Assembly: GCA_030390025.1 (NCBI GenBank)
Contig: JASTWF010000322.1
Span: 248,001 to 312,000 of the forward strand
Direction: 5' to 3'
DNA: 64,000 nucleotides
From: Squalus acanthias
Taxonomy: Eukaryota
Shown here: positions 2,252 through 56,575 of the stretch, piece after piece
Layout: each line of letters opens with the position of its first letter
Position numbering within the stretch: position 1 is the first letter of the stretch
Translations under genes and position numbers: made by a program
The notes under the pieces: generated by a model
What the model was told of the DNA's origin: nothing
What the model saw: the letters and a program-made list of their open reading frames with translations, nothing else
Databases searched by the model: none

Positions 2252-2906
2252 AAGAAAGAAAGACTTGCATTTCTATAGCGCCTTTCACGACCACTGGATG
2301 TCCAAAAGTGCTTTACAGCCAATGAATGTAAGAACATAAGAATTAGGAGCAGGAGTCGGCCACACGGCCCCTCGAGCCTCCACCGCCATTCAACGAGATC
2401 ATGGCTGATCTTCGACCTCAATTCCACTCTCCGGCAAGAAGTACTTTTTGAAGTGTGGTCACTGTTGTAATGTGGAAAACGTGTCAGCCAATTTGCGCAC
2501 AGCAAGCTCCCACAAACAGCAATGTGATGATGACCAGATCATCTGTTTTTGTTATGTTGGTTGAGGGATAAATATTGGCCCCAGGACACCGGGGAGAACT
2601 CCCCCCCTGCTCTTCTTCCAATAGTGGCCGTGGGATCTTTTACGTCTACCTGAGAGGACAGACGGTGCCTCGGTTTAACGTCTCGTCCGAAAGACGGCAC
2701 CTCCGACAGTGCGGCACTCCCTCAGTACTGGCACCGGGGAGTGTGGGCCTGGATTATGGGGCTCGAGTCCTAAAGTATATACGTCTACCTCCGACAGTGC
2801 AGCGCGCCCTCAGTACTGGCACCGGGGAGTGTGGGCCTGGATTATGTGGCTCGAGTCCTAGAGTATATACATCTACCTCCGACAGTGCAGCGCTCCCTCA
2901 GTACTG
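2252..2906 (-). mobile_element. Deu-domain SINE (SacSINE1-like) with 88-bp VNTR, 5'-truncated, interrupted by a short CR1 3' end (about 2330-2435)
   Basis: The reverse complement carries the Deu core GTGCCGTCTTTCGGA..ACGTTAAACCGAGG..GACGTAAAAGATCCCACGG. About 2 VNTR units lie at 2704-2906. Confidence 0.8.
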
Positions 2907-3318
2907 CACTAAGGAGAACAACCCCAGCTTCTCAAGTCCCTCCACATCACTGGTACCATTCTGGTCAATCTCCCCTTAACCTTCTCTGCTCCAAGGAGAA
3001 CAATCCCAGCTTCTCCAGTCTCTCCACATCACTGAAGTCCCTCATCCCTGGTCCCATTCTGGTCAATCTCCCCCTTAACCTTCTCTGCTCCATGGAGAAC
3101 AATCCCAGCTTCTCCAGTCTCTCCACATCACTGAAGTCCTTCATCCCTGGTACCATTCTGGTCAATCTCCCCCTTAACCTTCTCTGCTCTAAGGAGAACA
3201 ACCCCAGCTGCTCCAGTCTCTCCACATCATTGAAGTGCTTCATCCCTGGTACCATTCTGGTCAATCTCCTCTCAATCTTCTCTGCTCCAAGGAGAACAAC
3301 CCCAGCTTCTCCAGTCTC
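2907..3318 (-). repeat. Tandem array of a 90-bp unit from CR1 ORF2
   Basis: About 4.5 copies translate as RLTRMVPGM.DFSDVERLEKLGLFSLEQRRLRG. The same unit occurs at about 2140-2250 and 52925-53115. Confidence 0.85.
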
Positions 3319-3649
3319 TTTAACATCCCCCTGAGAGGGCAGACGGGGCCTCCGACAGTGCATGCGGTCCAGCTGTGGACTTCACCCTCAACCTTAAAGG
3401 GACTGACCCGAGGACACATGAAGACAGTGGTTCTGCCTGTCCCAGGATAACGAGGAGAGACCGGGACTAATTCCCACAGGCGAAGAGGAATGAAGCGCTT
3501 TTTAAATTAGGGAAGGCTTTGATAGGGTTAGAGAGATGGCAATGATGGATCATCAAGGGGACGGGTTAGCAGAAACTTTATTCCGTGCAGGATTATGGAA
3601 GAAGGGAATGTTTTAATACAGGGAGAGGTTAAGGGGAAACCATTGCATG

Positions 3650-7455: not shown

Positions 7456-7624
7456 ACCCTTGACTCCCAAACCCTAACCTTCCGCCTCCCGTTTTTAAAT
7501 TTTAAAAAAAGGGAAGATTTTGCCCGAACTCTTAAGGTGCACTTTAAGTGGAGATCGGATTGGCGACCGTTTCATCCAGGAGCAAAGTGGCTGGTCTCCA
7601 CGGGTATGGGTGGAGCGATGAAGG

Positions 7625-8211
7625 ATAGAAAGGCTTGCATCTATATAGCGCCACCTCAGAACAACCCGAAGCCAATGAAGTACTTTTTTCGAAGTGCAGT
7701 CGCTGCTGTAATGTGGGAAACGCGGCAGCCAGTTTGCGCACAGCAAGCTCCCACAAACAGCAATGTGATAATGACCAGATCATCAGTTTTTTTTAGTGAT
7801 GTTGGTTGAGGGATAAATATTGGGCCCCAGGACACCGGGGAGAACTCCCCCCTGCTCTTCTTCCAATAGTGGCCACGGGATCTTTTACGTCCACCTGAGG
7901 GGGCAGACGGGGCCTCGGTTTAACGTCTCGTCCAAAAGACGGCACCTGCGACAGTGCAGCGCTCCCTCAGTACTGGCACCGGGGAGTGTGGGCCTGGATT
8001 ATGGAGCTCGAGTCCTAGAGTATATACATCTACCTCCGACAGTGCAGCGCTCCCTCAGTACTGGCACCGGGGAGTGTGGGCCTGGATTATGGAGCTCGAG
8101 TCCGAGAGTATTTACATCTACCTCCGACAGTGCAGCGCTCCCTCAGTACTGGCACCGGGGAGTGTGGGCCTGGATTATGGAGCTCGAGTCCGAGAGTATT
8201 TACATCTACCT
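7625..8211 (-). mobile_element. Deu-domain SINE with about 3 VNTR units, 5'-truncated
   Basis: Tail, Deu core and 88-bp units (7950-8211) have the same layout as the 33668-34952 copy. Confidence 0.85.
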
Positions 8212-8979: not shown

Positions 8980-9074
8980 CGGATCGACCAAGGTGCTCTT
9001 GTCGTGAGTTTTTTTTGGCGGTGGGGGGAGGGCGTTCCCGCTGTCCGCCCATGTCAAGAGGGCGACGGCCTAAT

Positions 9075-9450
9075 CTGCGCACAGCAAGATCCCACAATTA
9101 GCAATGTGGCGATGCACAGCTAATCTGTCTTTTTTGTAAGTGATATGGGTTGAGGGATAAATATTGGGCCCCAGGACACCGGGGAGAACTCCCCCCTGCT
9201 CTTCTTCGAAATAGTGGCCAGGGGATCTTTTACGTCCACCTGAGAGGGCAGACGGGGCCCTCGGTTTAACGTCTCATCTGAAAGACGGCACCTCAGACAG
9301 TGCATCGCTCCCTCAGTACTGGCACCGGGGAGTGTGGGCCTGGATTATGGGGCTCGAGTCCTAGAGTATATACATCTACCTCCGACAGTGCAGCGCTCCC
9401 TCAGTACTGGCACCGGGGAGTGTGGGCCTGGATTATGGGGCTCGAGTCCA
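9075..9450 (-). mobile_element. Deu-domain SINE fragment with VNTR
   Basis: Deu core at about 9150-9295, then about 1.7 VNTR units. Confidence 0.8.
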
Positions 9451-15190: not shown

Positions 15191-15319
15191 CCCCTCCCCC
15201 TGCCCACTCTCCCTGCCATGTCCTCACTCGGCCACTTGGAGGTGAGCGAGAGCCTCGCAATTCAAATCCTGTTTTTATGTCGGGTGGGGGCGAAATCTAA
15301 AAAAACACCAAAAGACTGC

Positions 15320-20949: not shown

Positions 20950-21707
20950 CCGGCGCCTTTAACGTAGTAAAACGTCCCAGGGTGCTTCACAGGAGCGATT
21001 ATCAAACACAATCTGACCCCGAGCCACATGAGGAGATATTAGGACAGGCGACCAAAAGCTTGGTCAAAGAGGTCGGTTTTAAGGAGCGTCTTAAAGGAGG
21101 AGAGAGAGGCGGAGAGGTTTAGGGAGGGAATTCCAGAGCTCAGGGCCCCAGGCAGCTGAAGGCACGGCCGCCAATGGTGGAGCGATGGAAATCGGGGATG
21201 CTCAAGAGGCCAGAATTGGAGGAGCGCAGAGATCTCGGAGGGATGTAGGGCTGGAGGAGGTTACAGAGATAGGGAGGGGGCGAGGGCCATGGAGGGATTT
21301 GAACAGGAGGATGAGAATTGTTGGGCTGGAGGAGGTTACAGAGATAGGGAGGGGCGAGGGGCCATGGAGGGATTTGAACAGGAGGATGAGAATTGTTGGG
21401 CTGGAGGAGGTTACAGAGATAGGGAGGGGGCGAGGGGCCATGGAGGGATTTGAACAGGAGGATGAGAATTGTAGGGGCTGGAGGAGGTTACAGAGATAGG
21501 GAGGGGGCGAGGGCCATGGAGGGATTTGAACAGGAGGATGAGAATTGTAGGGGCTGGAGGAGGTTACAGAGATAGGGAGGGGGTGAGGGGCCATGGAGGG
21601 ATTTGAACAGGAGGATGAGAATTGTAGGGGCTGGAGGAGGTTACAGAGATAGGGAGGGGGTGAGGGGCCATGGAGGGATTTGAACAGGAGGATGAGAATT
21701 TTAAAAT
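20950..21707 (-). mobile_element. L2 LINE 3' end with a 75-77 bp tandem array (21250-21700)
   Basis: Reverse complement of 23930-24375; about 6 units of GGAGGAGGTTACAGAGATAGGGAGGGGGCGAGGGCCATGGAGGGATTTGAACAGGAGGATGAGAATTGTAGGGCT. Confidence 0.85.
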
Positions 21708-22099: not shown

Positions 22100-24375
22100 G
22101 GTAAACTATCCCTCCTCGTCCTTCTTGACTTGTCTGCAGTCTTTGACACGGGTTGACCACTCCATCCTCCTCCAACGCCTCTCCACCGTCGTCCAGCTGG
22201 GTGGGACTGCACTCGCCTGGTTCCATTCTCATCTATCTAATCGTAGCCAGAGAATCACCTGCAACGGCTTCTCTTCCCACTCCCGCATCGTTACCTCTGG
22301 TGTCTCCCAAGGATCTATCCTTGGCCCCCTCCTATTTCTCATCGACATGTTGCCCCTTGGCGACCTCATCCGAAAACACAGCGTCAGTTTCCACATGTAT
22401 GCTGATGACACCCAGCTCTACCTCATTACCTCTTCTCTCGAGCCCTCCACGGTCTCTAAATTGTCCGACTGCTTGTCCGACATCCAGTTCTGGATGAGCA
22501 AAACAGAGGAACAGGAGGAGGCCCATTCAGCCCCTCGAGCCTGTTACACAGGAACAGGAGGAGGCCCATTCAGCCCCCTCGAGCCTGTTACACAGGAACA
22601 GGAGGAGGCCCATTCAGCCCCCTCGAGCCTGTTACACAGGAACAGGAGGAGGCCCATTCAGCCCCCTCGAGCCTGTTACACAGCAACAGGAGGAGGCCCA
22701 TTAAGTCCCCTGGAGCCTGTTACACAGGAACAGGAGGAGGCCCATTCAGCCCCTCGAGCCTGTTACACAGGAACAGGAGGAGGCCCATTCAGCCCCTCGA
22801 GCCTGTTGCACAGGAACAGGAGGAGGCCCATTCAGCCCCCTCGAGCCTGTTACACAGGAACAGGAGGAGGCCCATTCAGTCCCTCGAGCCTGTTACACAG
22901 GAACAGGAGGAGGCCATTCAGCCCCTCGAGCCTGTTCCGCCATTCAATGAGATCACGGCTGATCTGTGACCTAACTCCATCCACCCGCCTTTGCCCCATA
23001 TCCTTTAATACCTTTAAAAATCTATCAATCTCTGATTTAAAATTAATCTAGCATCAATTGCCGTTTGCGGAAGAGAGTCCCAAACTCCTACCACCCTTTG
23101 TGTGTAGAAGTGTTTCCTAACTTCACTCCTGAAATTCATTAAATATATTCAAGAAGGAGTTGGATATATTTCTTAAGGCTAAAGGGATCAAGGGATATAG
23201 GGAGAAAGCAGGGACAGGGTACTGAGTTTGGATGATCAGCCATGATCGCATTGAATGGCGGAGCAGGCTCGAGGGGCCGAATGGCCTACTCCTGCTCCTA
23301 TCTTCTATGTTTCTATGTTTCTATATTTCTATTCTTCCGTTTACACTGCCTGCAATGCTGCCTATCTTTGTGCCATCGGCAAATTTGTAAGACTTCTATG
23401 TGACCATCCAAGTCGTTAATAAATACTGAGAATAGTTGAGGCCCCCACACAGATCAATGTGGTACAACATTAAATGTTCTCCAGTTAAATACTGGGAAGA
23501 CCGAAGCCATTGTTTTCGGTCCCCGCCACAAACTCCGTTCCCTGGCCACTGACTCCATCCCTCTCCGTAACATCTGTCTGAGGCTGAACCACACTGTTCG
23601 CAACCTTGGTGTCATATTTGACCCTGAAATGAGCTTCTGACCACATATCCGCAGCATAACAAAGACCGCCTACTTCCACCTCCGTAACATCGCCCGTCTC
23701 CGCCCCTGCCTCAGCTCATCCGCTGCTGAAACCCTCATCCCTGCCTTTGTTACCTCCAGACTTGACTATTCCAACGCTCTCCTGGCTGCCCTCCCACATT
23801 CCACCCTACGTAAACTTGAGGTCATCCAAAACTCGGCTGCCCCCGTGTCCTAACTCGCACCAAGTCCCGTTCACCCATCACCCCCTGTGCTCGCTGACCT
23901 ACGCTGGCTCCCGGTCCGGCAACGCCTCGATTTCACAATTCTCATCCTCCCGTTCAGATCCCTCCATGGCCCCTCGCCCCCTCCCTATCTCTGTAACCTC
24001 CTCCAGCCCTACAATTCTCATCCTCCTGTTCAAATCCCTCCATGGCCCTCGCCCCCCTCCCTATCTCTGTAACCTCCTCCAGCCCTACAACCCTCCGAGA
24101 TCTCTGCGCTCCTCCAATTCTGGCCTCTCGCGCATCCCCGATTTCCATCGCTCCACCATTGGCGGCCGTGCCTTCAGCTGCCTGGGGCCCTGAGCTCTGG
24201 AATTCCCTCCCTAAACCTCTCCGCCTCTCTCTCCTCCTTTAAGACGCTCCTTAAAACCGACCTCTTTGCCCAGCTTTTGGTCGCCTGTCCTAATATCTCC
24301 TTATGTGGCTCGGGGTCAGATTGTGTTTGATAATCGCTCCTGTGAAGCGCCCTGGGACGTTTTACTACGTTAATC
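22100..24375 (+). mobile_element. L2 LINE RT to 3' end, split by CR1-derived inserts at about 22503-23470
   Basis: GVSQGSILGPLLF..HMYADDTQLY..IQFWMSK (22125-22502) resumes with LQLNTGKTEAIVFG at about 23478. It ends with the L2-type tail GTGAAGCGCCCTGGGACGTTTTACTACGTTAA. Confidence 0.85.
22503..22935 (+). repeat. 42-43 bp minisatellite (about 10 units) still attached to its parent CR1 3' UTR
   Basis: Unit CCTGTTACACAGGAACAGGAGGAGGCCCATTCAGCCCCTCGAG. It continues directly into CCGCCATTCAATGAGATCA..., a minus-strand CR1 3' end. Confidence 0.93.
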
Positions 24376-24834
24376 GCAGGTCGTCGTTGTCGGGAAACTC
24401 AAGGGAACACCCCCTGTAATGGACAAGTGTAACTTACCTAGTTGTGAGCGCAGCAAGACAGTGTAATCCCCTGCAGTAATTACCAAGTTATCAAGGTGTG
24501 TACTAGGCTCGGGGAGCCTGGCTTCGAAACACCAGCCTCACGGGCGCGAGGGAATTATTTCCTTTCTCTAACATGTTTACCGAGCGAGTCATAGACTGTA
24601 ACAGGCTCGAATGACTCACTTCCTCATTGTCTCCAGGGGCACACCCTTGCAAGCACACTCGCCAAGCAGTGAGATCTGTCCTCCCGTGCCCCAGCACGTC
24701 TCCTGTGCGATGAAGGGTCGACGTCGAAAGAAAAAGCTGGCGGGTCCACGCCGCTCTTTCTCGACCTCAGGATGTTCCCCGAAGCCGTCTTGGCAGCAAC
24801 TGTTCCGCCTCCTCCACCTCACCACAGGGACTGC

Positions 24835-26040
24835 ACCTCAGAAAGTGCTTGGTCGACTGTGAAGCAGTCCTGAAATCGGGAAAGATATCAACGCAGGTTC
24901 TGAAGTGAGGCCGCTGTTGCAATGCAGGAAACTCGGCGCCCAATTTGCGCACAGCAAGATCCCATAAACAGCAAGGTCAGGACGACCAGATCGCCTGTTT
25001 TTTAGTGATGTTGGTTGAGGGATAAATATTGGGCCCAGGACACCGGGGAGAATTCCGCACCCCCCTGCTCTTCTTACAATAGTGGCCGTGGGATCTTTTA
25101 CGTCCACCTGAGAGGGCAGACGGGGCCTCGGTTTAACGTCTCTGACAGTGCAGCGCTCCCTCAGTACTGGCACCGGGGAGTGTGGGCCTGGATTATGGGG
25201 CTCGAGTCCCAGAGTATATACATCTACCTCCGACAGTGCAGCGCGCCCTCAGTACTGGCACCGGGGAGTGTGGGCCTGGATTATGGGGCTCCAGTCCTAG
25301 AGTATATACATCTACCTCCGACACTGCAGCGCTCCCTCAGTACTGGCACCGGGGAGTGTGGGCCTGGATTATGGGGCTCGAGTCCTAGAGTATATACATC
25401 TACCTCCGACAGTGCAGCGCTCCCTCAGTACTGGCACCGGGGAGTGTGGGCCTGGATTATGGGGCTCGAGTCCTAGAGTATATACATCTACCTCCGACAC
25501 TGCAGCGCTCCCTCAGTACTGGCACCGGGGAGTGAGGGCCTGGATTATGGGGCTCGAATCCTAGAGTATATACATCTACCTCCGACAGTGCAGCACTCCC
25601 TCAGTACTGGCACCGGGGAGTGTGGGCCTGGATTATGGGGCTCAAGTCCTCGAGTATACACATCTACCTCCGACAGTGCAGCGCTCCCTCAGTACTGGCA
25701 CCGGGGAGTGTGGGCCTGGATTATGGGGCTCGAGTCCGAGAGTATATACATCTACCTCCGACAGTGCAGCGCTCCCTCAGTACTGGCACCGGGGAGTGTG
25801 GGCCTGGATTATGGGGCTCCAGTCCGAGAGTATATACATCTACCTCCGACAGTGCAGCGCTCCCTCAGTACTGGCACCGGGGAGTGTGGGCCTGGATTAT
25901 GGGGCTCGAGTCCGAGAGTATATACATCTACCTCCGACAGTGCAGCGCTCCCTCAGTACTGGCACCGGGGAGTGTGGGCCTGGATTATGGGGCTCCAGTC
26001 CGAGAGTATATACATCTACCTCCGACAGTGCAGCGCTCCC
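24835..26040 (-). mobile_element. Deu-domain SINE with about 10 VNTR units, 5'-truncated
   Basis: Tail and Deu core at 24835-25142; 88-bp array at 25143-26040. Confidence 0.88.
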
Positions 26041-26164: not shown

Positions 26165-26568
26165 CTAGCACCATATTCCACCCTCCGTAAACTTGACCGT
26201 GTTCAAAACTCCTGCTGCCCCCGTGTCCTAACTCACACCGAGTCCTGTTCACCCATCACCCCCTGTGCTCGCCCCCTCCCTATCTCTGTAACCTCCTCCA
26301 GCACCGACAATTCTCATCCTCCTGTTCAAATCCCTCCGTGGCCCCTCGCCCCCTCCCTATCTCTGTAACCTCCTCCAGCCCTATAATTCTTATCCTCCTG
26401 TTCAAATCCCTCCATGGCCCCTCACCTCCTCCCTATCTCTGTATCCTCCTCCAGCCCCTACAATTCTCATCCTCCTGTTCAAATCCCTCCATGGCCCCTC
26501 GCCCCCTCCCTATCTCTGTAACCTCCTCCAGCCCCTACAACCCTCCGAGATCTCTGCGCTCCTCTAAT
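26165..26568 (+). mobile_element. L2 fragment with the 75-77 bp array
   Basis: Same unit as 21250-21700 in reverse orientation; about 3-4 copies. Confidence 0.8.
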
Positions 26569-28227: not shown

Positions 28228-28666
28228 GCCTGTCACTTTAATTCACCGCTTCACTCCCACTCTGACCTCACCGTCCTCGGCCTATTACACTGTTCCACGG
28301 AAGCGCAGCGTAAGCTCGAGGAACAGCACCTCATCTTTCGTTTAGGCACGCTACAGCCCTCTGGACTCAATATCGAGTTCAACAATTTTAGATCATAACC
28401 TCAGCTCCAATCACATTTATATTTTATTTTTTCCACCCTTTTATTTGCCCCCCCCCCACCTTTTTTTTCCTCCTAGAAGCTGGCAGCTGTCCTTCATTCT
28501 GCCAGTGGATTTCACACTTCTTTCAGCCTTAATCTGTCACATTAACACCACCTCTAGCCTTGCATATCTCTTAATGTCTCTTCATCTCCCCCTTTGTTCT
28601 TTTATCCCCTCCCCCTTTTCCCAGCTTTACTCTGGCCTTAAATCTATTTGATTTCCGGCTCTTCAC

Positions 28667-28702
28667 AGTTCTGACGAAAGTCATCGAGCTGAAACGTTAA
28701 CT
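28667..28702 (+). ncRNA. Hammerhead motif (family 1) in the 5' pLTR, stem II mutated
   Basis: AGUU-CUGACGA-AAGUCAUCGAGCU-GAAA-CGUU-AACU. The core is intact; stem II has a 1-nt loss and a substitution relative to the 3' copy. Confidence 0.55.
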
Positions 28703-28837
28703 CTCTTTCTCTCTCCACGGATGCTGCCTGGCCTGCTGAGTTTTTCCAGCGTTTTCTGTTGTTATTTCAGATTTCCAGCATCCGCAGTATTTTGCTATCG
28801 TACTAGTGTTTGGTTCACTGCCACCTCTCTTCTAGGA

Positions 28838-31574
28838 ATGCCTACCTTGAAGAAGTTCTGCTCTTCTCTTCGACGGGATTTCCGTTTGGCTCTTCAACCT
28901 TGTTCATCTTCATTGATTTCAGTTTCCCTTCTCGTGTTTGATCAGGTATCTTCCAAGACTCGGTTTCACAGCCACATTACTTTCCTCAGCAACTGTCTCC
29001 GGTTCCGACTTATCCCACGTGGATTCCAACTAAACTTCCACCCTTCGTGTTTCGGATCAACCCAGGATTACAAATATCTCCAAGATATTCATCGTTCCTC
29101 GAACTACTGCTCTCGCCGCATCTTGAGATCCACGCTCAACGCCATGCGGCGCCACATGAACACTCTCGACCTCTCTCTTCAGCAGCACCGACGCACTCTA
29201 TGTCAAAGCTGTCCGGGTCCACAGTTCCATTTCATCCTTAGACTCATCCGACGCTTCAACAAAAAACTTTTCTTCTTCCTTTCCGATGTCAAGGATCGCA
29301 AGCTTCAACAACTCTCGGACACTAACGCCCCTCCGGAACCTTCTTCCCCTTCACTTTCCTCTGACCCCCCTTCTCCCAATCTCACCCCCTGCCGCGTTTT
29401 CACTATCCCCTCTGACCTTCCCCTCTCTGACTCCGAACGATCAGTCCTCAGCAAAGGCCTGACCTTCATCCCCTTACGCCCCCATCTCAATGAATTTCGA
29501 GCTCGGCACGATGCTGAGCTCTTTTTCCGCCGCCTCCGTCTCCGTGCCCACTTCTCTGGCCAGGAGTCTTCCCCCCGCACGGCTGACCCTTTCTCCCGCT
29601 TTCAGAATTCTCGTTCCACCTGGACCCCTCCCTCTGGCCTCTTACCCTCTCTAGATCTTTTCATTGCTAACTGCCGCCGTGACATCGGCCAGCTCAATTT
29701 CTCTGCTCCCCTCACTCACTCCAACCTACCTCCCTCTGAACTTGCAGCACTCCATTCTCTCCGATCCAACCCTGACATTGTCATTAAACCTGCTGACAAG
29801 GGTGGCGCTGTTGTTGTTTGGCGAACCGACCTCTACCTAGCGGAAGTTGACACCTCCTCCTACCTCCACCTGGACCATGACCCCACTACTGAACATCAAG
29901 CCATCGTGTCCAAGACCGTCACTGACCTCATCTCCTCTGGAGATCTTCCCCCCCACGGCCGCCAACCTCATAGTTCCCCAACCACGCACAGCCCGCTTCT
30001 ACCTCCTTCCCAAGATCCACAAACAGGACTGCCCCGGTAGACCCATCGTTTCAGCCTGTTCTTGCCCCACGGAACTTATCTCTTCCTATCTCAACTCTAT
30101 TTTTTCTCCCCTTGTCCAGTCTCTTCCCACCTACATCCGCGACTCTTCCGATGCCCTCCGCCATTTTAACAGTTTCCAGTTTCCCGGCCCCAACCGTCTC
30201 CTCTTCACTATGGACGTACAATCCGTCTACACCTCCATCCCCCACCAGGATGGCCTGAGGGCGCTCCGCTTCTTCCTTGAACAGAGGCCCAACCAATCCC
30301 CATCCACCACCACCCTCCTCCGCCTGGCTGAACTTGTTCTCACATTGAACAACTTCTCCTTTGACTCTACCCATTTCCTCCAAATTAAAGGTGTTGCTAT
30401 GGGTACCCACATGGGTCCTAGCTATGCCTGCCTTTTCGTGGGATATGTGGAACACTCTTTGTTCCAGTCCTACTCGGGTCCCCTCCCTCACCTCTTTTTC
30501 CGGTACATTGATGACTGTATCGGTGCCGTCTCCTGCTCTCGCCCTGAACTAGAACATTTCATTCACTATGCTTCCAATTTCCACCCTTCCCTCACCTTCA
30601 CATGGTCCATCTCCGACTCTTCCCTTCCCTTCCTCGACTTCTCCATCTCCATCTCTGGGGATAGGTTATTGACTAACATTCACTACAAGCCCACTGACTC
30701 CCACAGCTACCTGGACTACACTTCCTCCCACCCCGCCTCCTGTAAGGACTCTATTCCATTCTCCCAGTTTCTCCGTCTCCGCCGCATCTGCTCTGATGAT
30801 GCCACCTTCCATACCAGTGCTTCCGACATGTCTTCCTTTTTCCTCAACCGAGGATTCCCCTCTACCGTGGTCGACACGGCCCTCGACCGTGTCCGTTCTA
30901 TCTCCCGCACTTCTGCCCTCACCCCTGCCCCTCCCTCCCGGAACCACGATAGGGTTCCCCTTGTCCTCACCTTTCACCCCACCAGCCTCCACATTCAACG
31001 GATCATCCTCCGCCATTTCCGCCACCTCCAGCGTGATCCCACCACCAAATACATCTTCCCCTCACCTCCCCTTTCAGCATTCCGCAGGGACCGCTCCCTC
31101 CGCGACACCCTAGTCCACTCCTCTACCACCCCCAGCACCCCATCCCCTTCGCCCGGCACCTTCCCGTGCACGCGCAGGAGATGCAACACATGCCCTTATA
31201 CCTCCCCTCTTCCCACTGTCCAGGGCCCCAAACACCCCTTCCAGGTGAAACAGCGATTTACTTGTACTTCCTGCAATTTAGTATACTGTATTCGCTGCTC
31301 ACGATGTGGTATCCTCTACATTGGGGAGACCAAACGCAGATTGGGTGACCGCTTTGCGGAACACCTCCGTTCAGTCCGTAAGGGGGACCCCGAGCTCCCG
31401 GTGGCCTGTCACTTTAATTCACCGCTTCACTCCCACTCTGACCTCACCGTCCTCGGCCTATTACACTGTTCCACGGAAGCGCAGCGTAAGCTCGAGGAAC
31501 AGCACCTCATCTTTCGTTTAGGCACGCTACAGCCCTCTGGACTCAATATCGAGTTCAACAATTTTAGATCATAA
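28838..31574 (+). pseudogene. Penelope-like polyprotein (RT + GIY-YIG endonuclease) with one frameshift at a C7 run (29948-29954)
   Basis: IKPADKGGAVVV in ORF 28721..30040. FYLLPKIHK, RPIVS, GVAMG, RYIDD, a CTRRRCNTC linker and VYCIRCSRCGILYIGETKRRLGDRFAEH in ORF 29847..31574. Confidence 0.9.
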
Positions 31575-31853
31575 CCTCAGCTCCAATCACATTTATATTT
31601 TATTTTTTCCACCCTTTTATTTGCCCCCCCCCCCACCTTTTTTTTCCTCCTAGAAGCTGGCAGCTGTCCTTCATTCTGCCAGTGGATTTCACACTTCATT
31701 CAGCCTTAATCTGTCACATTAACACCACCTCTAGCCTTGCATATCTCTTAATGTCTCTTAATGTCTCTTCATCTCCCCCTTTGTTCTTTTATCCCCTCCC
31801 CCTTTTCCCAGCTTTACTCTGGCCTTAAATCTATTTGATTTCCGGCTCTTCAC

Positions 31854-31890
31854 AGTTCTGATGAAAGGTCATCGACCTGAAACGTTAACT
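31854..31890 (+). ncRNA. Minimal type-I hammerhead ribozyme motif (family 1) in the 3' pLTR
   Basis: AGUU-CUGAUGA-A-AGGUC(AUC)GACCU-GAAA-CGUU-AACU; palindromic AACGUU in place of stem III. Confidence 0.78.
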
Positions 31891-32065
31891 CTCTTTCTCT
31901 CTCCACGGATGCTGCCTGGCCTGCTGAGTTTTTCCAGCGTTTTCTGTTGTTATTTCAGATTTCCAGCATCCGCAGTATTTTGCTATCGTATTAGTCTAGT
32001 AAACCTTCTCTGAACTGCTTCCAACGCATTTACACCCTTCCTTAAATAAGGAGAGCAATACTGTA

Positions 32066-33667
32066 CATAGAAACATAGGAGCAGGAGTCGGCCATTCGGC
32101 CCCTCGAGCCTGCTCCGCCATTCGATGAGATCATGGCTGATCATCCAAACTCAGTACCCTGTACCTGCCTTCTCCCCATATCCCTTGATCCCTTTAGCTT
32201 TAAGAAATATATCTAACTCATTCTTAAATATATTTAATGACTTGGCCTCAACTACCTTCTGTGGTAGAGAATTCCACAGGTTCACCACTCTCTGGGTGAA
32301 GAAATTCTTCCTCATTTCTGTCCTAAATGGCTTACCCCTTATCCTTAGACTATGACCCCTGGCTCTGGACTCTCCGACCATCGGGAACATTCTTCCTGCA
32401 TCTAGTCTGTCTAGTCCTGTCAGAATTTTATATGTTTCGATGAGATCTCCTCTCATTCTTCTAAACTCCAGCGAGTATAAGCCCAATCGACCCAATCTCT
32501 CCTCATATGTCATTCCTGCCATCCCAGGTATCAGCCTGGTAAATCTTCGCTGCACTCCCTCCATGGCAAGAACATCCTTCCTCAGATAAGGTGACCAAAA
32601 CTGCACACAGTACTCAAGGTGTGGTCTCACCAAGGCCCTGTACAACTGCAGCATAACCTCCCTACTTTTGTATAGTCAATAAGAAGAGCATAACTAGAGG
32701 CCATCAATATAAGACAGTCGCTAATAAATCCAATGGGGAATTCAGGAGAAATTTCTTTACCCAGAGAGTGATGAGAATGTGGAACTCGCTACCACAGGGA
32801 GTGCTAGAGGCAACATTCAGGCTTGGGCAATGACTATCTCCAACAAGCGAGAGTCTAACCACCTCCCCTTGACATTCAACGGCATTACCATCGCCGAATC
32901 CCCCACCATCAACATCCTGGGGGTCACCATTGAACAGAAACTTAACTGGACCAGCCACATAAATACTGTGGCAACAAGAGCAGGTCAGAGGCTGGGTATT
33001 CTGCGGCGAGTGTCTCACCTCCTGACTCCCCAAAGCCTTTCCACCATCTACAAGGCACAAGTCAGGAGTGTGCTGGAATACTCTCCAATTGCCTGGATGA
33101 GTGCAGCTCCAACAACACTCAAGAAGCTCGACACCATCCAGGACAAAGCAGTCCCGCTTGATCGGCACCCCATCCACCACCTTAAACATTCACTCCCTCC
33201 ACCACCGGCGCACCGTGGCTGCAGTGTGTACCATCTACAAGATGCACTGCAGCAACTCGCCAAGGCTTCTTCGGCAGCACCTCCCAAACCCGCGACCTCT
33301 TCCACCTAGAAGGGCAAGGGCAGCAGGCGCATGGGAACACCACCACCTCCAAGTTCCACCTCCGAGTCACACACCATCCTGACTTGGAAATATATCGGCC
33401 GTTCCTTCATCGTCGCTGGGTCAAAATCCTGGAACTCCCTCCCTGACAGCACTGTGGGAGCACCTTCACCACACGGACTGCAGCGGTTCAAGAAGGCGGC
33501 TCACCACCACCTTCTCAAGGGCAACTAGGGATGGGCAATAAATACGAATAAAAAAATAGCACTGATGGATTTAAGGGGATGCAGGATAAGCACATGAGGG
33601 AGAATGGAATAGAAGGCTACGATGATAGGGGTGAGATGAAGAGGGGTAGGAGGAGGATCGTGTGGAG
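32066..33667. mobile_element. CR1 3' fragment (-, 32066-32675), then a + CR1 end interrupted by a second-family LINE fragment (32810-33555)
   Basis: ORF 32151..32654 is a CR1 C-terminus. ORFs 32779..33309 and 33101..33382 match 1100-1800. Confidence 0.85.
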
Positions 33668-34952
33668 AAAGAAAGTCTTGCATTTCTATAGCGCCTTTCA
33701 TGACCACCGGACGTCCCAAAGCGCTTTATAGCCAATGAAGTACTTTTTGAAGTGTAGTCACTGTTGTATTGTGGGAAACGCAGCAGCCAATTTGCGCACA
33801 GCAAGCTCCCACAAACAGCAATGCGATAATGGCCAGATCATCTGTTTTAGTGAAATAACAACAGAAAACGCTGGAAAAACTCAGCAGGCCAGGCAGCATC
33901 CGTGGAGAGAGAAAGAGAGTTAACGTTTCAGGTCGATGACCTTTCATCATCTGTTTTAGTGATGTTGGTTGAGGGATAAATATTGGCCCCAGGACACCGG
34001 GGAGAATTCCCCCCCCCTGCTCTTCTTCGAGACAGCACCATGGGATCTTTTACAGCCACCCGAGAGAGCAGACGGGGCCTCGCTTTAACGTCTCATCCGA
34101 AAGACGGCACCGCCGACAGTGCAGCACTCCCTCAGCACTGGCACCGGGGAGTGTGGGCCTGGATTATGGAGCTCGAGTCCTAGAGTATATACATCTACCT
34201 CCGACAGTGCAGCGCTCCCTCAGCACTGGCACCGGGGAGTGTGGGCCTGGATTATGGGGCTCGAGTCCTAGAGTATATACATCCACCTCCGACAGTGCAG
34301 CGCTCCCTCAGTACTGGCACCGGGGAGTGTGGGCCTGGATTATGGAGCTCGAGTCCTAGAGTATATACATCTACCTCCGACAGTGCAGCACTCCCTCAGT
34401 ACTGGCACCGGGGATAGTGGGCCTGGATTATGGAGCTCGAGTCCTAGAGTATATACATCTACCTCCGACAGTGCAGCGCTCCCTCAGTACTGGCACCGGG
34501 GAGTGTGGGCCTGGATTATGGAGCTCGAGTCCGAGAGTATATACATCTACCTCCGACAGTGCAGCACTCCCTCAGTACTGGCACCGGGGAGAGTGGACCT
34601 GGATTATGGGGCTCGTGTCCTAGAGTATATACATCTACCTCCGACAGTGCAGCACTCCCTCAGTACTGGCACCGGGGAGTGTGGGCCTGGATTATGGGAC
34701 TCGAGTCCTAGAGTATATACATCTACCTCCGACAGTGCAGCGCTCCCTCAGTACTGGCACCGGGGAGTGTGGGCCTGGATTATGGGGCTCGAGTCCTAGA
34801 GTATATACATCTACCTCCGACAGTGCAGCGCTCCCTCAGTACTGGCACTGGGGAGTGTGGGCCTGGATTATGGGGCTCGAGTCCCGGGAGTGGGACTTGA
34901 ACCCACAACCTTCTGACTCAGAGGCGAGAGTGCTACCCACCCAGCCACCGCT
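33668..34952 (-). mobile_element. Full-length Deu-domain SINE: tRNA-derived head + about 9 x 88-bp VNTR + Deu core + L2-like tail
   Basis: The minus-strand head GGTGGCTGGGTGGGTAGCACTCTCGCCTCTGAGTCAGAAGGTTGTGGGTTCAAGTCCCACTCC has an A-box-like start and B-box GGTTCAAGTCC (about 34885-34950). VNTR at 34115-34882; Deu core at 33965-34115. Confidence 0.88.
33854..33945 (-). mobile_element. Solo Penelope family 1 pLTR end inserted in the SINE
   Basis: Reverse complement of about 31862-31955; flanked by a 17-bp direct repeat ATCATCTGTTTTAGTGA (33837-33853 and 33946-33962). Confidence 0.8.
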
Positions 34953-35029
34953 AACACTCAAAACACCGGCGTGGTCCAGTTGGGCTGAATGGCCTCTTTC
35001 TGTGCTGTGAATACTATGAAATCGGATTA

Positions 35030-37800
35030 GAATCACAGAAAAATTACGACACAGAAGGAGCCCATTCGGCCCATCGTGTCCATGCCGGCCGACAAAGAGC
35101 TCTCCGGCCTAATCCCACTGTCCAGCTCTAGGTCCGTAGCCCTGTAGGTTACGACACTCCAAGCGCATATCCAAGTACTGTTTAAAATGTGATGAGGGTT
35201 CCTGCCTCTACCACCCTTTCAGGCAGTGAGTTCCAGACCCCCACCACCCTCTGGCTGCAGAAAGTTCTCCTCAACTCCCCTCTAATCCTTCGACCAATTA
35301 CTTTCAATTTATGCCCCCTGGTTATTGACGTCACTGCTAAGGGAAATAGGTCCTTCCTATCCACTCTATCTCGGCCCCTCATCATTTTATACACCTCAAT
35401 TAAATCTCCCCTCAGCCTCCTCTGTTCCAAAGAAAACAACCCCAGCCTATCCAATCTGTCCTCGTAGCTGAAACACTCCAGTCCTGGCAACATCCTGGTA
35501 AACCTCCTCTGCACTCTCTCTAGTGCAATCACATCCTTCCTGTAATGTGGTGACCAGAACTGCACGCAGTACTCTAGCTGCAGCCTAACTAGTGTTTTAT
35601 ACAGTTCAAGCATAACCTCCCCTGCTCTTGTATTCTATTGAGAGGTCGCACAACACCAGGTTATAGTCCAACAGTTTTATTTGAAATCACAAGCTTTCGG
35701 AGCTATCGATTGCCTATTGGACTATTGGACTGTTGGACTATAACCTGGTGTTGTGCGACCTCTCAATTTTGTCCACCCCAGTCCAACACCGGCATCTCCG
35801 CATCATGACCACTTGTATTCTATGCCACGGCTAATAAAGGCAAGCATTCCGTATGCCTTCTTAACCACCTTATCTACCTGGCCTGCTACCTTCAGGGATC
35901 TGTGGACATGCACTCCAAGGTCCCTTTGTTCCTCTACACTACTCAGTGTCCTACCATTTAATGTGTATTCCTTTGCCTTGTTAGCCCTCCCCCCAAATGC
36001 ATTACCTCACACTTCTCCGGATTGAATTCCATTTGCCACTGTTCTGCCCACCTGACCAGTCCATTGATATCTTCCTACAGTTTACAGCTTCCTTCTCCAG
36101 TATCAACCACACAGCTGATTTTAGTATCATCTGCAAACTTCTTAATCATACCCCCTACATTCAAGTCTAGATCTTTGATAGATACCACAAAAAGCAAGGG
36201 ACCCAGTACTGAGCCCTGCGGAACCCCACTGGAAACAGCCTTCCAGTCACAAAAACACCCTTCGACCATTACCCTTTGCTTCCTGCCTCTGAGCCAATTT
36301 TGGATCTAACTTGCCACTTTCCCTTGGATCCCACGGGCTTTTACTTTCGTGACCAGTCTGCCATGCGGGACCTTATCAAAAGCCTTGCTAAAATCCATGT
36401 AGATGACATCAAACGCACTGCCCTCATCGACCCTCCTTGTTACCTCCTCAAAGAATTCAATCAAGTTAGTCAGACACGACCTGCCCTTAACAAAACCATG
36501 TTGACTGTCCTTGATTGATCTGTGTCTTTCTAAATGAAGGTTTATCCTGTCCCTCAGAATTGATTCCAGTAACTTGCCCACCACCGAGGTTAAACTAACT
36601 GGCCTGTAAATGCTCGAGGAACAGCACCTCATCTTTCATAGAAACATAGAAGATAGGAGCAGGAGTAGGCCATTCGGCCCCTCGAGCCTGCTCCGCCATT
36701 CGATGAGATCATGGCTGATCATCCAAACTCAGTACCCTGTCCCTGCTTTCTCCCCATATCCCTCGATACCTTTAGCTTTAAGAAATATATCTAACTCATT
36801 CTTGAATATATTTAATAGCTTGGCCTCAACTACCTTCAGTGGTAGAGAATTCCACAGGTTCACCACTCTCTGGGCGAAGAAATTCTTCCTCATTTCTGTC
36901 CTAAATGGCTTACCCCTTATCCTTAGATTATGACCCCTGGTTCTGGACTCTCCGACCATTGGGAACATCCTTCCTGCATCTAGTTTGTCCAGACCTGTCA
37001 GAATTTTATATGTTTCGATGAGATCTCCTCTCATTCTTCTATACTCCAGTGAGTATAAGCCCAATCGACCCAATCTCTCCTCATATGTCATTCCTGCCAT
37101 CCCAGGTATCAGCCTGGTGAATCTTTGTTGAACTCCTTCCATGGCAATAACATCCTTCCTCAGATAAGGCGACCAAAACTGCACACAGTACTCAAGGTGT
37201 GGTCTCACCAAGGCCCTGTACAACTGCAGCAGGACATCCCTGTTCCTATACTCAAACCCTTTCGCTATGAAGGCCAACATACCATTTGCCTTCTTCACCG
37301 CCTGCTGCACCTGCAAGCTTACCTTCAGCGACTGGTGCACAAGGACACCCAGGTCTCGTTGCACTTCCCCTTCTCCCAATCTATTGCCATTCAGATAATA
37401 GTCTGCCTTTATGTTTTTGACACCAAAGTGGATAACCTCGCATTTATTCACGTTATATTGCATCTGCCACGCTTCTGCCCACTCACCCAACCTGTCCAAA
37501 TCATCCTGGAGTTTCTCAGTATCCTCCTCGCAGCACACACGCCCACCCAGCTTTGTGTCATCTGCAAACTTGGAGATATTACATTTAGCTCCCTTATCTA
37601 GATCATTAATGTATATTGTGAATAGCTGGGGTCCAAGGACCGATCCCTGCGGTACCCCACTAGTCACTGTCTGCCACTCGGAAAAAGACCCATTAATTCC
37701 TACTCTCTGCTTTCTGTCCGCCAACCAGTTCTCTATCTAAGTCAATACCTTCCCCCAATCCCATGTGCCTTAACTTTACATGCTAATCTCTTATGCGGGA
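35030..37800 (-). mobile_element. Two CR1 RT-to-3' fragments (35030-36610 and 36638-37800)
   Basis: ORFs 35182..35613, 36075..36269, 36306..36632 and 36729..37724 (331 aa, [20 protein letters not shown]). Confidence 0.9.
35639..35811 (+). mobile_element. Short 5'-inverted Penelope family 2 insertion
   Basis: Perfect inverted repeat of about 38 bp; 12-bp TSD CTTGTATTCTAT (35627-35638 and 35812-35823) within a CR1. Confidence 0.8.
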
Positions 37801-38397: not shown

Positions 38398-39022
38398 CAT
38401 AGAAAAATAGGAGCAGGAGTAGGCCATTCGGCCCTTCGAGCCTGCTCCGCCATTCAATATGATCATGGCTGATCCTCTATCTCAATACCATATTCCCGCT
38501 CTCTCCCCATACCCCTTGATGCCTTTTGTGTCTAGAAATCGATCTATCTCCTTCTTAAATATATTCAGTGACTTGGCCTCCACAGCCTTCTGTGGTAGAG
38601 AATTCCACAGGTTCACCACCCTCTGAGTGAAGAAATTTCTCCTCATCTCAGTCCTAAATGTCCTACCCCGTATCCTGAGACTGTGTGACCCCTCGTTCTA
38701 GACCCCCCCCCCAGCCAGGGGAAACATCCTCCCTGCATCCAGTCTGTCTAGCCCTGTCAGAATTTTATACGTTTCAATGAGATCCCCTCTCATTCTTCTA
38801 AACTCTAGTGAATACAGGCCTAGTCGACCCAATCTCTCCACATACGATAGTCCTGCCATCCCAGGAATCAGTCTGGTGAACCTTCGCTGCACTCCCTCTA
38901 TGGCAAGTATATTCTTTCTTAGGTAAGGAGATCAAAACTGCACACAGTACTCCAGGTGTGGTCTCACCAAGGCCCTGTACAACTGTAGTAAGACATCCTT
39001 GCTCCTGTACTCAAATCCTCTT
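38398..39022 (-). mobile_element. CR1 3' fragment
   Basis: ORF 38698..38892; near-identical to 26845-27475. Confidence 0.85.
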
Positions 39023-39530
39023 GCACTGTCGGAGGTAGATGTATGTACTCTGGGACTCGAGCTCCATAATCCAGGCCCACACTCCCCGGTGCCAGTACTG
39101 AGGGAGCGCTGCACTGTCGGAGGTAGATGTATATACTCTAGGACTCGAGCCCCATAATCCAGGCCCACACTCCCCGGTGCCAGTACTGAGGGAGCGCTGC
39201 ACTGTCGGAGGTGCCGTCTTTCGGATGAGACGTTAAACCGAGGCCCCGTCTGCTCTTTCAGGTGGACGTAAAAGATCCCACGGCCACTATTTCAAAGAAG
39301 AGCATGGGGGGGAGTTCTCCCCGGTGTCCTGGGGCCAATATTTATCCCTCAACCATCATAACAAAAAAAAACCAGCTAATCTGGTCGTTATCACATTGCT
39401 GTTTGTGGGAGCTTGCTGTGCGCAAATTGGCTGCCGTGTTTCCCACATTACAACAGTGACCACACTTCAAAAAGTACTTCATTGGCTGTAAAGTGCTTTG
39501 AGACGTCCGGTGGTCGCGAAAGGTGCTATA
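39023..39530 (+). mobile_element. Deu-domain SINE with 2 VNTR units, 5'-truncated, + orientation
   Basis: VNTR at 39023-39210, Deu core at 39210-39360, tail ending AAAGGTGCTATA. Confidence 0.85.
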
Positions 39531-42500
39531 CACACCTGGAGTACTGCGTACAGTTTTGGTCTCCTTATTTAAGGAAGGATATACTTGCATTGGAGGCAGT
39601 TCAGAGACGATTCACTCGGTTAATTCCAGAGATGAGGGGGTTGACTTATGACGAAAGGTTGAGCAGGTTGGGCCTATACTCATTGGAATTTAGAAGAATG
39701 AGAGGTGATCTTATTGAAACATATAAGATACTGAGGGGGCCTCGACAAGGTAGATGCAGAGAGGATGTTTCCCCTCGTGGGGAAATCTAGAACTCGGGGG
39801 CACAGTTTCAGAATAAAGGGTCGCCCTTTTAGAACTGAGATGAGGAGGAATTTCTTCTCTCAGAGGGTCGTAAATCTGTGGAATTCTCTGCCCCAGAGAG
39901 CTGTGGAGGCTGGGTCATTGAATACATTTAAGGTGGAGATAGACAGATCTTTGCAAGATAAGGGAGTGAAGGGTTATGGGGAGCGGGCGGGGAAGTGGCT
40001 TTGAGCCCAAGATCAGCCATGATCTTATTGAATGGCGGAGCAGGCTGGAGGGGCCAAGTGGCCTATTCCTGCTCCTGTGTCTTATGTTCTATAGAAATGC
40101 AAGTCTTTCTTTTATGCAAGTGTAAAAGATCTTTGTGTTTTCTACTTGCCAGTATTTTATCATGCCTTCTTTTTGCTTTCCTAACTTCCTTCTGCACTCT
40201 TGGAGGGGTCACAGTCTCAGGATAAGGGGTCGGCCATTTAGGACTGAGATGAGGAGGAATTTCTTCACTCAGAGGGCGGTGAATCTTTGGAATTCTCTGC
40301 CCCAGAGGGCTGTGGAGGCTCAGTCGTTGAGAATATTGAAGGCATGGCAGATGCAGCATAATGTGGATAAATGCGAGGTTATCCACTTTGGTGGCAAAAA
40401 CAGGAAGGCAGATTATTATCTGAACGGCAATAGATTGGGAAAAGGGGAGGTGCCACGAGACCTGGGTGTCCTTGTGCACCAGTCGCTGAAGGTAAGCTTG
40501 CAGGTGCAACAGGCGGTTAAAAAGGCAAATGGTATGTTGGCCCTCATAGCGAGAGGATTCGAGTACAGGAACAAGGATGTCTGGGCCTTGGTGAGACCAC
40601 ACCTTGAGTATTGTGTGCAGTTTTGGTCACGTTATCTGAGGAAGGATGTTCTTGCCATGGAGGGAGTGCAGCGAAGATTCACCAGGCTGATACCTGGGAT
40701 GGCAGGAATGACATATGAAGAGAGATTGGGTCGATTAGGCTTGTATTCGCTCGAGTTTAGAAGAATGAGAGGAGATCTCATTGAAACTTATAAAATTCTT
40801 ACAGGACTAGACAGACTAGATGCAGGAAGGATGTTCCCGATGGTCGGGGAGTCCAGAACCGGGGGTCACAGTCTAAGGATAAGGGGTAAGCCATTTAGGA
40901 CTGAGATGAGGAGGAATTTCTTCACCCAGAGAGTGGTGAACCTGTGGAATTCTCTACCACAGAAGGCAGTTGAGTCCAATTCATTAAATATATTCAAGAA
41001 GGAGATAGATATATTTCTTAAGGCTAAAGGGATCAAGGGATATGGGGAGAAAGCAGGGACAGGGTACTGAGTTTGGATGATCAGCCATGATCTCATCGAA
41101 TGGCGGAGCAGGCTCGAGGGGCCGAATGGCCTACTCCTGCTCCTATCTTCTATGTTTCTAATGATATAGGCTTCCCTTTCTTTGCCTCGTCTTACCCTGG
41201 AAGCCCCTGGTCATCCAGGGGAGCTCTAAATTTGGCCGTTCAACGCTCTTTCTGTCTTCACCCTGAACTCCAAGCATCTCCCTCTTCAATGCCTCCCACT
41301 GCTCGGACACTGGTTTACCTTCAAGTAACTTGTCTCCGGCCCACTTTTGCTAAATCGCTTCTCAACCTCATGAAATTGGCCTCCCCCTCCCAATTTAGGA
41401 CCCTTACTCCTGTTTTTTCTTTGTCCTAATCCATAATCGTCACAGAAATTCTCGTCACAGGAGGCCATTCGGCCCATCTTGTCCATGCCGGCCGACAAAG
41501 ACCTATCCAGCCTAATCCCACTTTCCAGCTCTAGGTCCGTAGCCCTGTGGGTTTTGGCACTTCAAGCGCATATCCAAGTACTGTTTAAAATGTGATGAGG
41601 GTTCCTGCCTCTACCACCCTTTCAGACAGTGAGTTCCAGACCCCCACCACCCTCTGGGTGAAGAAATTTCTCCTCAACTCCCCTCTAAACCTTCTACCAA
41701 TTACTTTCAATCTATGCCCCCTGGTTATTGACCTCTCTGCTAAGGGAAATAGGTCCTTCCTATCCACTCTATCTCGGCCCCTCATCATTTTATACACCTC
41801 AATTAAATCTCCCCTCAGCCTCCTCTGTTCCAAAGAAAACCATCCCAGCCTAACCAGCCTTTCCTCATAGCTAAAATTCTCCTGCCCTGGCAACATCCTG
41901 GTAAATCTCCTCTGTACCCTCTCTAGTGCAATCACATCCTTCCTGTAATGTGGTGACCAGAACTGCACGCAGTACTCTAGCTGAGGCCTAACTAGTGTTT
42001 TATACAATTCAAGCATAACCAGCCCTGCTCTTGTATTCTATGCCTCGGCTAATAAAGGCAAGCATTCCGTATGCCTTCTTAACCACCTTATCTACCTGGC
42101 CTGCTACCTTCAGGGATCTGTGGACATGCACTCCAAGGTCCCTCTGTTCCTCTACACTACTCAGTGTCCTACCATTTATTGTGTATTCCCTTTCCTTGTT
42201 AGCCCTCCCCAAATGCATTACCTCACACTTCTCCGGATTGAATTCCATTTGCCACTGTTCTGCCCACCTGACCAATTTATTGATACCTTCCTGCAGTCTA
42301 CTGCTTCCTTCTTCTGTATCAACCACACGGTCAATTTTTGTATCATCTGCAAACTTCTTAATCATACCCCCTATATTCAAGTCTAGATCGTTGATATATA
42401 CCACAAAAAGCAAGGGACCCAGTACTGAGCCCTGCGGAACCCCTCTGGAAACAGCCTTATTTGTTCTTTAGTTCAACCCATATGGCCTCGTTGGACGATC

Positions 42501-56543: not shown

Positions 56544-56575
<32 letters not shown>

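What the first reader, a model, noticed from the sequence alone, without database searches (positions are those of the whole stretch)
33668..34952. Composite SINE-VNTR retroposon (tRNA head + 88-bp VNTR + Deu domain + L2-like tail)
Seen: one full-length copy with about 9 units. Five others (2252, 7625, 9075, 24835, 39023; both strands) have about 2-10 units and all stop inside the VNTR on their 5' side. The unit junction has a fixed linker (TAGAGTATATACATCTACCTCC) that does not occur in the head or Deu core, so the arrays share one origin. Inference: a VNTR-carrying SINE subfamily mobilised as a unit, loosely analogous to primate SVA, with reverse transcription often ending in the VNTR.
Basis: partly seen in the sequence, partly recalled or inferred. 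Interest (0 to 1): 0.72.

Follow-up and report, generated by a model that had tools for sequence, protein, structure and literature searches.

The report
SINE-derived 88-bp minisatellite in shark-type SINE
A short jumping repeat of a shark-type genome has had one 88-letter stretch of itself copied head to tail, and this stuttering form now sits at six unrelated places in the window, an example of the known process by which jumping repeats seed satellite DNA rather than a new composite element like the human SVA.

Summary
Six loci carry 1.8-10.2 copies of one 88-bp unit; the junction 22-mer hits 25 times against 0 by chance. The same joint is in contigs of a second sample and a second organism.

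The reading needs trimming. The unit is the SINE's own post-B-box segment plus 10-16 new, near-palindromic bases, so this is an internal tandem duplication, not an SVA-like composite. It matches the SINE-derived satellites of squamates (PMC10702118). Only one copy has a head, with a damaged A box, and a Penelope-type insert has since put T-runs into it.

Two copies sit in clean empty sites (4-bp duplication; blunt), as L2-type retrotransposition gives. Three others join a young array and body (2-4% diverged) to old tails (15-20%), which points to homology-directed events. "Stops in the VNTR" is largely ascertainment. L2 and CR1 in the window carry similar arrays.

Best reading (0.5): a satellite-bearing SINE sub-lineage spread by reverse transcription plus recombination into older copies; DNA-only conversion 0.35. 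Interest 0.4.

The parts
33668..34958 (-). Copy F, the only copy with both SINE ends: head, 8.8 units, body, tail; blunt insertion into a CR1 3' region
34885..34958 (-). tRNA-like head; B box at 34894-34902 with a T-arm-like hairpin, damaged A box at 34936-34947
   Evidence: family 5' end from loose ends; no ARAGORN or Rfam tRNA hit; box motifs recalled
34109..34884 (-). Array of 8.8 x 88-bp units (72 bp of SINE body plus a 16-bp junction, of which 10-16 bases are new and near-palindromic)
33950..34108 (-). Central body (Deu-type domain by recall); 12 of 141 positions differ from the six-copy majority
33853..33949 (-). Nested 97-bp Penelope-type fragment, identical to 31859-31955, inside a 17-bp duplication; brings the only T4/T5 runs of copy F's sense strand
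33668..33852 (-). 3' body and tail; last 50 nt weakly like the window's L2 3' ends
2255..2909 (-). Copy A: 2.4 units, body, intact tail (split by a CR1 tail at about 2327-2437), TAAG duplication (2251-2254, 2910-2913) inside a 99-bp CR1 minisatellite
7624..8211 (-). Copy B: 3.0 units, young body, tail 15% diverged with a replaced stretch; no target duplication seen
9062..9449 (-). Copy C: 1.8 units, young body, old (18.5%) 3'-truncated tail; 5' end joined to a short CR1 piece
24894..26040 (-). Copy D: 10.2 units, young body with a 19-bp deletion, old (20%) 3'-truncated tail
39022..40112 (+). Copy E: 2.2 units, body, intact tail split by a CR1 piece (39531-40088, CTATA duplication); 5' end head to head with a CR1 through a 4-bp microhomology
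3320..3352 (-). Short internally deleted body fragment of the same SINE at the 5' end of the 99-bp CR1 array

Best explanation
This is a SINE-derived minisatellite carried by a sub-lineage of a SacSINE1-type SINE (tRNA head, central body, L2-like tail). Step 1 (structure shown, mechanism inferred): the stretch from the end of the head to the start of the central body was duplicated once, and the joint took up about 10 fold-back-templated bases, giving a fixed 88-bp unit. Step 2 (inferred): slippage or unequal exchange at DNA level changes the unit number. Step 3 (inferred, fits copies A and F): RNA holding array, body and tail is reverse transcribed by an L2-type LINE from the tail, giving blunt or short-duplication insertions that usually lose the 5' end. 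Step 4 (mosaics shown, mechanism inferred): in other cases the young array and body are written into an older resident SINE copy by homology, using RNA or DNA as template, which leaves an old tail and no target duplication (copies C, D, probably B). Whether the template RNA is a head-bearing Pol III transcript or a headless read-through transcript is open.
For: One phase and junction at six loci with unrelated flanks, on both strands. Units are 61 of 2508 positions from their majority and no closer within a locus than between loci. All five one-ended copies keep the 3' side, at scattered 5' points. A and F lie in rebuildable empty sites with a 4-bp and no duplication; L2 insertions give short duplications, blunt joints, truncations and microhomologies (PMC2666801, passages). 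F without its insert has no T4 in 1180 nt, so Pol III read-through is possible. Mosaics: body versus tail differences are 5/141 vs 24/159 (B), 5/141 vs 12/65 (C) and 3/124 vs 21/104 (D), Fisher p < 0.001 each; change points lie at the A-rich tract for C and D (permutation p 0.003) and later for B (0.02). The 88-bp joint is in 28 contigs of run X2 (organism A) and 8 of X8 (organism D).
Against: Only one of six copies (A) has a real target duplication, and 4 bp is short. A's 5'-most bases are of the ordinary, non-array type, as two-sided conversion of an ordinary insertion would also leave. F's array (20/776) is closer to the pool than F's own body (12/141; p 0.0016), which fits a young array placed into an older full-length SINE. 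Five of five 3'-anchored is weak alone (two-sided p about 0.06, by hand). All six body-bearing copies in this window carry the array, whereas linker depth is only about 1-3% of head depth in whole runs (summed contig depth, not a copy number); such local piling suits ectopic recombination. No conserved order of unit variants between loci. The tail-to-L2 match is weak (2 of 200 shuffles reach it).
Confidence: 0.5

Rival explanations
1. DNA-level spread only. The array is a satellite module that moves by ectopic gene conversion, one-sided strand invasion or integration of small circles into resident SINE copies. The clean junctions of A and F belong to earlier, ordinary SINE insertions that were converted later.
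For: Mosaic copies B, C, D; F's array younger than its body and 5' end; ordinary-type bases at A's 5' end; four of six copies without duplication. The L2 77-bp arrays show the same mosaic: 3' parts 96.6-98.2% alike, 5' parts 82-88%. The window is GC-rich (47-63%) and 28% long-unit arrays, like chromosome ends and small chromosomes of sharks (10.1101/2022.10.17.512540, passages); squamate SINE satellites prefer subtelomeres (PMC10702118).
Against: Conversion into residents should often leave a head. Heads are about as deep as the shared body segment in whole runs, yet five of six copies have none and no head-only array was found. A is young along its whole length (4/142 and 5/172) and sits in a young array.
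Confidence: 0.35
2. One reading: a uniform full-length subfamily (head, array, body, tail) is transcribed by Pol III from a master copy, and reverse transcription stalls preferentially in the array.
For: F has both ends at a blunt site, an intact B box and no T4 without its insert. At most 0.4-1.7% of depth at 34886 could carry F's head-junction base, one per 11-17 of linker depth, which does not exclude other head-bearing copies.
Against: One head in six; its A box differs from the family's 5' end (by eye); F now carries T5 and T4; three copies are mosaics; stopping in the array is expected from ascertainment and length alone (about 700 of 775 upstream bases are array).
Confidence: 0.12
3. 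Local segmental duplication or an assembly artefact made the six loci.
For: The window is rich in repeats and has an assembly gap at 5464-5663.
Against: Flanks of the copies do not match each other beyond known repeats; units carry private changes; the joint exists in an independent sample and another organism.
Confidence: 0.03

Closest known systems
SINE-derived satellites (sSat1-3) of squamate reptiles (Vassetzky et al. 2023, PMC10702118; read parts 1-4 of 5 of the main text)
   Same: Tandem units of 70-290 nt taken from part of a tRNA-SINE; snake sSat3 covers the 3' head and start of the body; most loci keep one SINE end and a few keep both; some units include 14-44 nt of unknown origin; units are more alike than the SINE copies.
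   Different: Different SINE (SacSINE1-type) and a shark-type genome; the paper says it is uncertain whether such satellites exist outside squamates. Arrays here are short (2 of 6 reach its four-middle-unit cut-off). The unit leaves out the B box. The parts read give no junction analysis; here two loci have retrotransposition-type junctions and three are mosaics.
SacSINE1 / SacSINE1-CM Deu-SINEs of cartilaginous fishes (PMC5499810, parts 1-2 of 6 read; PMC2746220 and PMC4824008, passages; Nishihara 2006 not seen)
   Same: tRNA head, central domain, L2-related tail; 463 bp against about 475-478 bp for copy F reduced to one unit and no insert. Sequence identity with SacSINE1 is recalled, not tested.
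   Different: No internal tandem array is mentioned in what I read. The array-type unit differs from the ordinary family at 5 substitutions and 1 insertion in the 20 bases next to the head (loose ends, by eye; weak consensus).
SVA/LAVA VNTR composite retrotransposons (PMC4432496, abstract and passages)
   Same: GC-rich central array of variable length inside a non-autonomous retroposon; length changes at DNA level; 5'-truncated copies.
   Different: SVA joins unrelated sources and is L1-mobilised in hominoids, with 30-50-bp units. Here everything but 10-16 bases comes from one SINE, the tail is L2-like, there is no poly(A), and duplications are 0-4 bp.

Membership tests
SINE-derived satellite (sSat type) | Tandem unit taken from part of a SINE and shorter than it (70-290 nt) | tested here: met
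   88-bp unit; 72 bp run on into head and body in copy F
SINE-derived satellite (sSat type) | Terminal unit extends to a SINE end on one side, sometimes both | tested here: met
   5 of 6 loci extend on the 3' side only, 1 of 6 on both
SINE-derived satellite (sSat type) | Units homogeneous within and between loci | tested here: met
   22 full units: 3.6% within, 3.9% between loci
SINE-derived satellite (sSat type) | At least four middle units (the paper's working cut-off) | tested here: inconclusive
   met by 2 of 6 loci, D and F
SINE-derived satellite (sSat type) | Subtelomeric preference | not testable with these tools
   no genome held; window is GC-rich and array-rich
SacSINE1-type Deu-SINE | tRNA-derived head with A and B boxes | tested here: inconclusive
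   B box and T-arm-like hairpin present, A box damaged in F; family 5' end in reads has the intact box; ARAGORN and Rfam give no tRNA hit
SacSINE1-type Deu-SINE | Central Deu domain homologous to the published consensus | not testable with these tools
   no consensus in reach; likeness is recalled only
SacSINE1-type Deu-SINE | 3' tail shared with an L2 LINE | tested here: inconclusive
   33 of 50 columns match the L2 end at 21244; 2 of 200 shuffles reach the score; same score for a second L2, not significant for three other stretches
SacSINE1-type Deu-SINE | Length about 463 bp | tested here: met
   about 475-478 bp with one unit and no insert (463 bp from PMC2746220)
SVA/LAVA VNTR composite | Built from unrelated source elements around the VNTR | tested here: not met
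   unit is colinear with the SINE's own head-body segment; 10-16 new bases
SVA/LAVA VNTR composite | L1-type mobilisation marks (poly(A) tail, clear target duplications; recalled) | tested here: not met
   no poly(A); duplication 4 bp in A, none in F, none seen in B-E
SVA/LAVA VNTR composite | Array-bearing copies form a clade that moves as a unit | not testable with these tools
   no array-free copy in the window and no outgroup found

The most novel reading that the evidence does not exclude
In GC-rich domains of this shark-type genome, SINE, L2 and CR1 each carry a young tandem-array cassette that spreads through RNA: the LINE reverse transcriptase either inserts it anew or primes on an old homologous copy and overwrites part of it. 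That would be a retrotransposition route by which satellites born in transposons move between loci and get homogenised, and by which old copies are partly rejuvenated.
Probability: 0.2. Interest if true: 0.7.

Novelty: new variant of a known kind. Interest (0 to 1): 0.4.

Why it matters
The squamate study leaves open whether SINE-derived satellites occur in other groups and how one unit type reaches many loci. This case appears to extend them to a Deu-type SINE of a shark-type genome. It keeps junctions young enough to test retrotransposition against conversion directly. For annotation, such loci will be called as tandem repeats plus SINE fragments and inflate counts. No function for the host is indicated.

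Tried and rejected
No whole genome is held, so no genome-wide count, tree or orthologue test was possible. ARAGORN found 0 genes in the window. Rfam over 33300-35400 gave 4 hits, all far below gathering scores and outside the element. No fold of head or unit beat shuffles (z -1.07 to 0.88, 4 stretches); a structured-RNA role for the unit is rejected. The linker was absent from metagenome and viral contigs. A 20-base body motif gave 2 metagenome, 0 viral and 2 bacterial-genome loci; the two named ones are Nitrospirales bins, so I took all four as chance and did not read them; no outgroup resulted. Runs: no RNA holder listed; run X15 is only guessed to be RNA, so its 4 contigs with the joint say nothing on transcription. 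Raw-read run X22 (organism J) laid 13 reads, none on the linker or the unit-specific part: uninformative. The read test covered only the head and one unit (34795-35034), not body or tail. Looked for a displaced head beyond the CR1 next to copy E: none in the window. Looked for a conserved order of unit variants between loci: none clear. Literature searches that found no description of this array. Repbase and Dfam could not be checked. Supplements of PMC5499810 could not be read, one file of PMC4824008 was not searched, and bioRxiv supplements are closed; these may hold the SacSINE1 consensus or shark satellite lists.

Full report
Observation. The 88-bp array at 34109-34884 has 8.8 units, and the same unit lies at four more loci by TRF and a sixth by BLAST. 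The junction 22-mer has 25 matches in these six loci and none in 100 shuffles. I call the copies A (2255-2909), B (7624-8211), C (9062-9449), D (24894-26040), F (33668-34958), all minus strand, and E (39022-40112, plus). Only F has a head. That the genome is shark-type rests on recalled repeat sequences and on unchecked earlier notes; organism names are coded.

Anatomy. On the minus strand F reads: a 74-bp head with an intact B box and a damaged A box, eight 88-bp units and a last 72-bp unit, a central body, and a tail. Reduced to one unit and without its insert it is about 475-478 bp (one search gives 475; the 17-bp duplication read makes it 478). SacSINE1 is 463 bp with a tRNA head, Deu domain and L2-related tail (PMC2746220, passage; PMC5499810, parts 1-2). 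I could not fetch its consensus, so identity is recalled. The tail matches an L2 end in the window at 33 of 50 columns, reached by 2 of 200 shuffles. A 97-bp piece identical to the end repeat of a Penelope-type element (31859-31955) has inserted into F. It brings T5 and T4 runs; without it F has no T4 in 1180 nt. So F cannot now give a full Pol III transcript (inference from the known T4 stop signal).

The unit. Comparing unit-to-unit, unit-to-head and unit-to-body junctions shows that 72 bp are the SINE's own sequence and that four more junction bases match the head side. Only 10 to 16 bases are new. They form a near-perfect inverted repeat with their neighbours, as fold-back filler synthesis at a break would (inference). 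The array is therefore an internal duplication with one origin, not a captured foreign VNTR. The 22 full units differ by 3.6% within and 3.9% between loci; all array bases differ from their majority at 61 of 2508 positions, 4 of them an alignment effect of a one-base deletion in A. No fold beats shuffles.

Beyond the window. No genome is held. I laid 4 of the 24 listed runs on the head and one unit (34795-35034). The 88-bp joint is in 28 contigs of X2 (organism A) and 8 of X8 (organism D), so it is not an assembly artefact nor private to one organism label. X22 gave 13 reads, none on the linker. Linker depth is about 3% of head depth in X2 and X8; the tool warns this is no copy number, but it suggests a minority form, whereas all six body-bearing copies in this window carry the array. 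The same segment also forms a 33-bp tandem and several other joints. None of the 24 pieces listed bridges head, unit and linker; 101,539 pieces were not shown.

Evidence for movement by reverse transcription. A sits in a 99-bp CR1 minisatellite with TAAG on both sides and is young throughout (body 4/142, tail 5/172). F sits bluntly in a CR1 3' region whose empty form is seen in three other window copies. L2 insertions give short duplications, blunt joints, truncations and frequent microhomology (PMC2666801, passages). All five one-ended copies keep the 3' side, ending at unit positions 37, 69, 1, 50 and 58. Heads are about as deep as the shared body segment in whole runs, so five headless copies of six are not what two-sided conversion of residents predicts.

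Evidence against a simple subfamily. B, C and D join a young body (2.4-3.5%) to tails 15-20% diverged (Fisher p < 0.001 each). Change points are significant for C and D (p 0.003) and B (0.02), not for A, E or F. C and D lack a proper 3' end. No target duplication was seen for B, C, D or E. F's array is closer to the pool than its body (20/776 against 12/141, p 0.0016), and its first 20 bases differ from the family's 5' end at 5-6 positions plus one inserted base, two of them in the A box (by eye). A's 5'-most bases are of the ordinary type, which either model can explain. E's 5' end is a 4-bp microhomology joint to a CR1, and no displaced head lies in the window. Ending in the array is expected, because a copy is counted only if it keeps units and the array makes up most of the upstream length.

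Context. The window is 52% GC and 28% long-unit arrays. L2 and CR1 carry their own arrays at several loci, and the L2 ones are also young-on-old mosaics. Shark chromosome ends and small chromosomes are GC-rich, and small chromosomes rich in tandem repeats (10.1101/2022.10.17.512540, passages). Earlier notes report CR1-born and L2-born satellites in this genome and a LINE that begins with a SINE head (unchecked, leads only).

Mechanism. Most likely (0.5): one duplication with filler, length change at DNA level, spread of array-body-tail RNA by an L2-type reverse transcriptase, and homology-directed writing into older copies. DNA-only conversion gets 0.35, a uniform Pol III master with stalling 0.12, duplication or artefact 0.03. 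Shown: shared origin, junction anatomy, two clean sites, three mosaics. Inferred: every mechanistic step, the partner LINE and the polymerase.

Comparison. The closest system is the SINE-derived satellites of squamates (PMC10702118, parts 1-4 of 5): units from part of a tRNA-SINE, one SINE end kept in most loci and both in a few, sometimes 14-44 nt of unknown origin in the unit. This works like them and passes the structural tests; location is untestable. It resembles SVA only in having a variable central array (PMC4432496, passages) and fails the composite and L1-mark tests. Eight literature searches found no description of this array. Papers seen in passages only that added nothing: PMC11406177, PMC10468316. 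Repbase, Dfam and several supplements were out of reach and may list it.

Verdict. A real feature and a new variant of a known kind. Interest 0.4. The boldest reading not excluded, RNA-templated spread of array cassettes by SINE, L2 and CR1 into new sites and old copies, has probability 0.2 and would deserve 0.7.

Noticed in passing
window 21244-21700, 23935-24090, 26268-26540, 55329-56214: 76/77-bp arrays from an L2 (family name recalled) at four loci. The 3' parts of three loci are 96.6-98.2% alike, the 5' parts of three loci 82-88% alike: the same young-on-old mosaic as in the SINE.
   Followed up: partly
window 19007-19851, 49792-50242; 2127-3319, 52923-53119; 22503-22936, 58201-63997; 3652-5463: Arrays of 51, 99, 43/44 and 50 bp whose units match non-array CR1-type copies in the window (weakly for the 50-bp unit); three of the four occur at two loci with the same unit. 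With the rest, long-unit arrays cover 18,064 of 64,000 bases.
   Followed up: partly
window 28652-31955: Penelope-type element: frames with weak reverse transcriptase and GIY-YIG hits below Pfam cut-offs, between direct repeats at 28672 and 31859; further fragments at 20388, 33853 and 45649.
   Followed up: partly
window 34814-34846 (read data): The same SINE segment also forms a 33-bp tandem (14, 1 and 5 contigs in X2, X15, X8) and joints going back 51, 75 and 82-86 bases with varied fillers: a hot spot of tandem duplication.
   Followed up: no
window 39021/39022 and 21700/21701: Two head-to-head joints of 5'-truncated retroposons (SINE with CR1; L2 with CR1) through short microhomologies, possibly two cDNAs joined at one break.
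   Followed up: partly
window 33837-33962; A-rich tract of the SINE body: The Penelope-type insert in F and the young-to-old switch in C and D fall at the same A/T-rich tract.
   Followed up: partly
window 34866-34886 and 34938-34958: Against the ordinary family seen in loose ends, changes in the array-type unit run mostly from A/T to G/C (4 of 5 substitutions in 20 bases, by eye); GC-biased conversion is a guess.
   Followed up: partly
window 10247-10963 (-): C2H2 zinc-finger exon (Pfam zf-H2C2_2, E 8e-37), next to a 41/83-bp array at 11323-15199.
   Followed up: no
window 24804-24886 (+): Old plus-strand SINE tail remnant lying tail to tail with copy D.
   Followed up: partly
window 56001-60000: GC 63% stretch ending in the 5.8-kb 43-bp array; a promoter-like island is a guess.
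   Followed up: no
window 5464-5663: Assembly gap of 200 N at the end of the 50-bp array.
   Followed up: no
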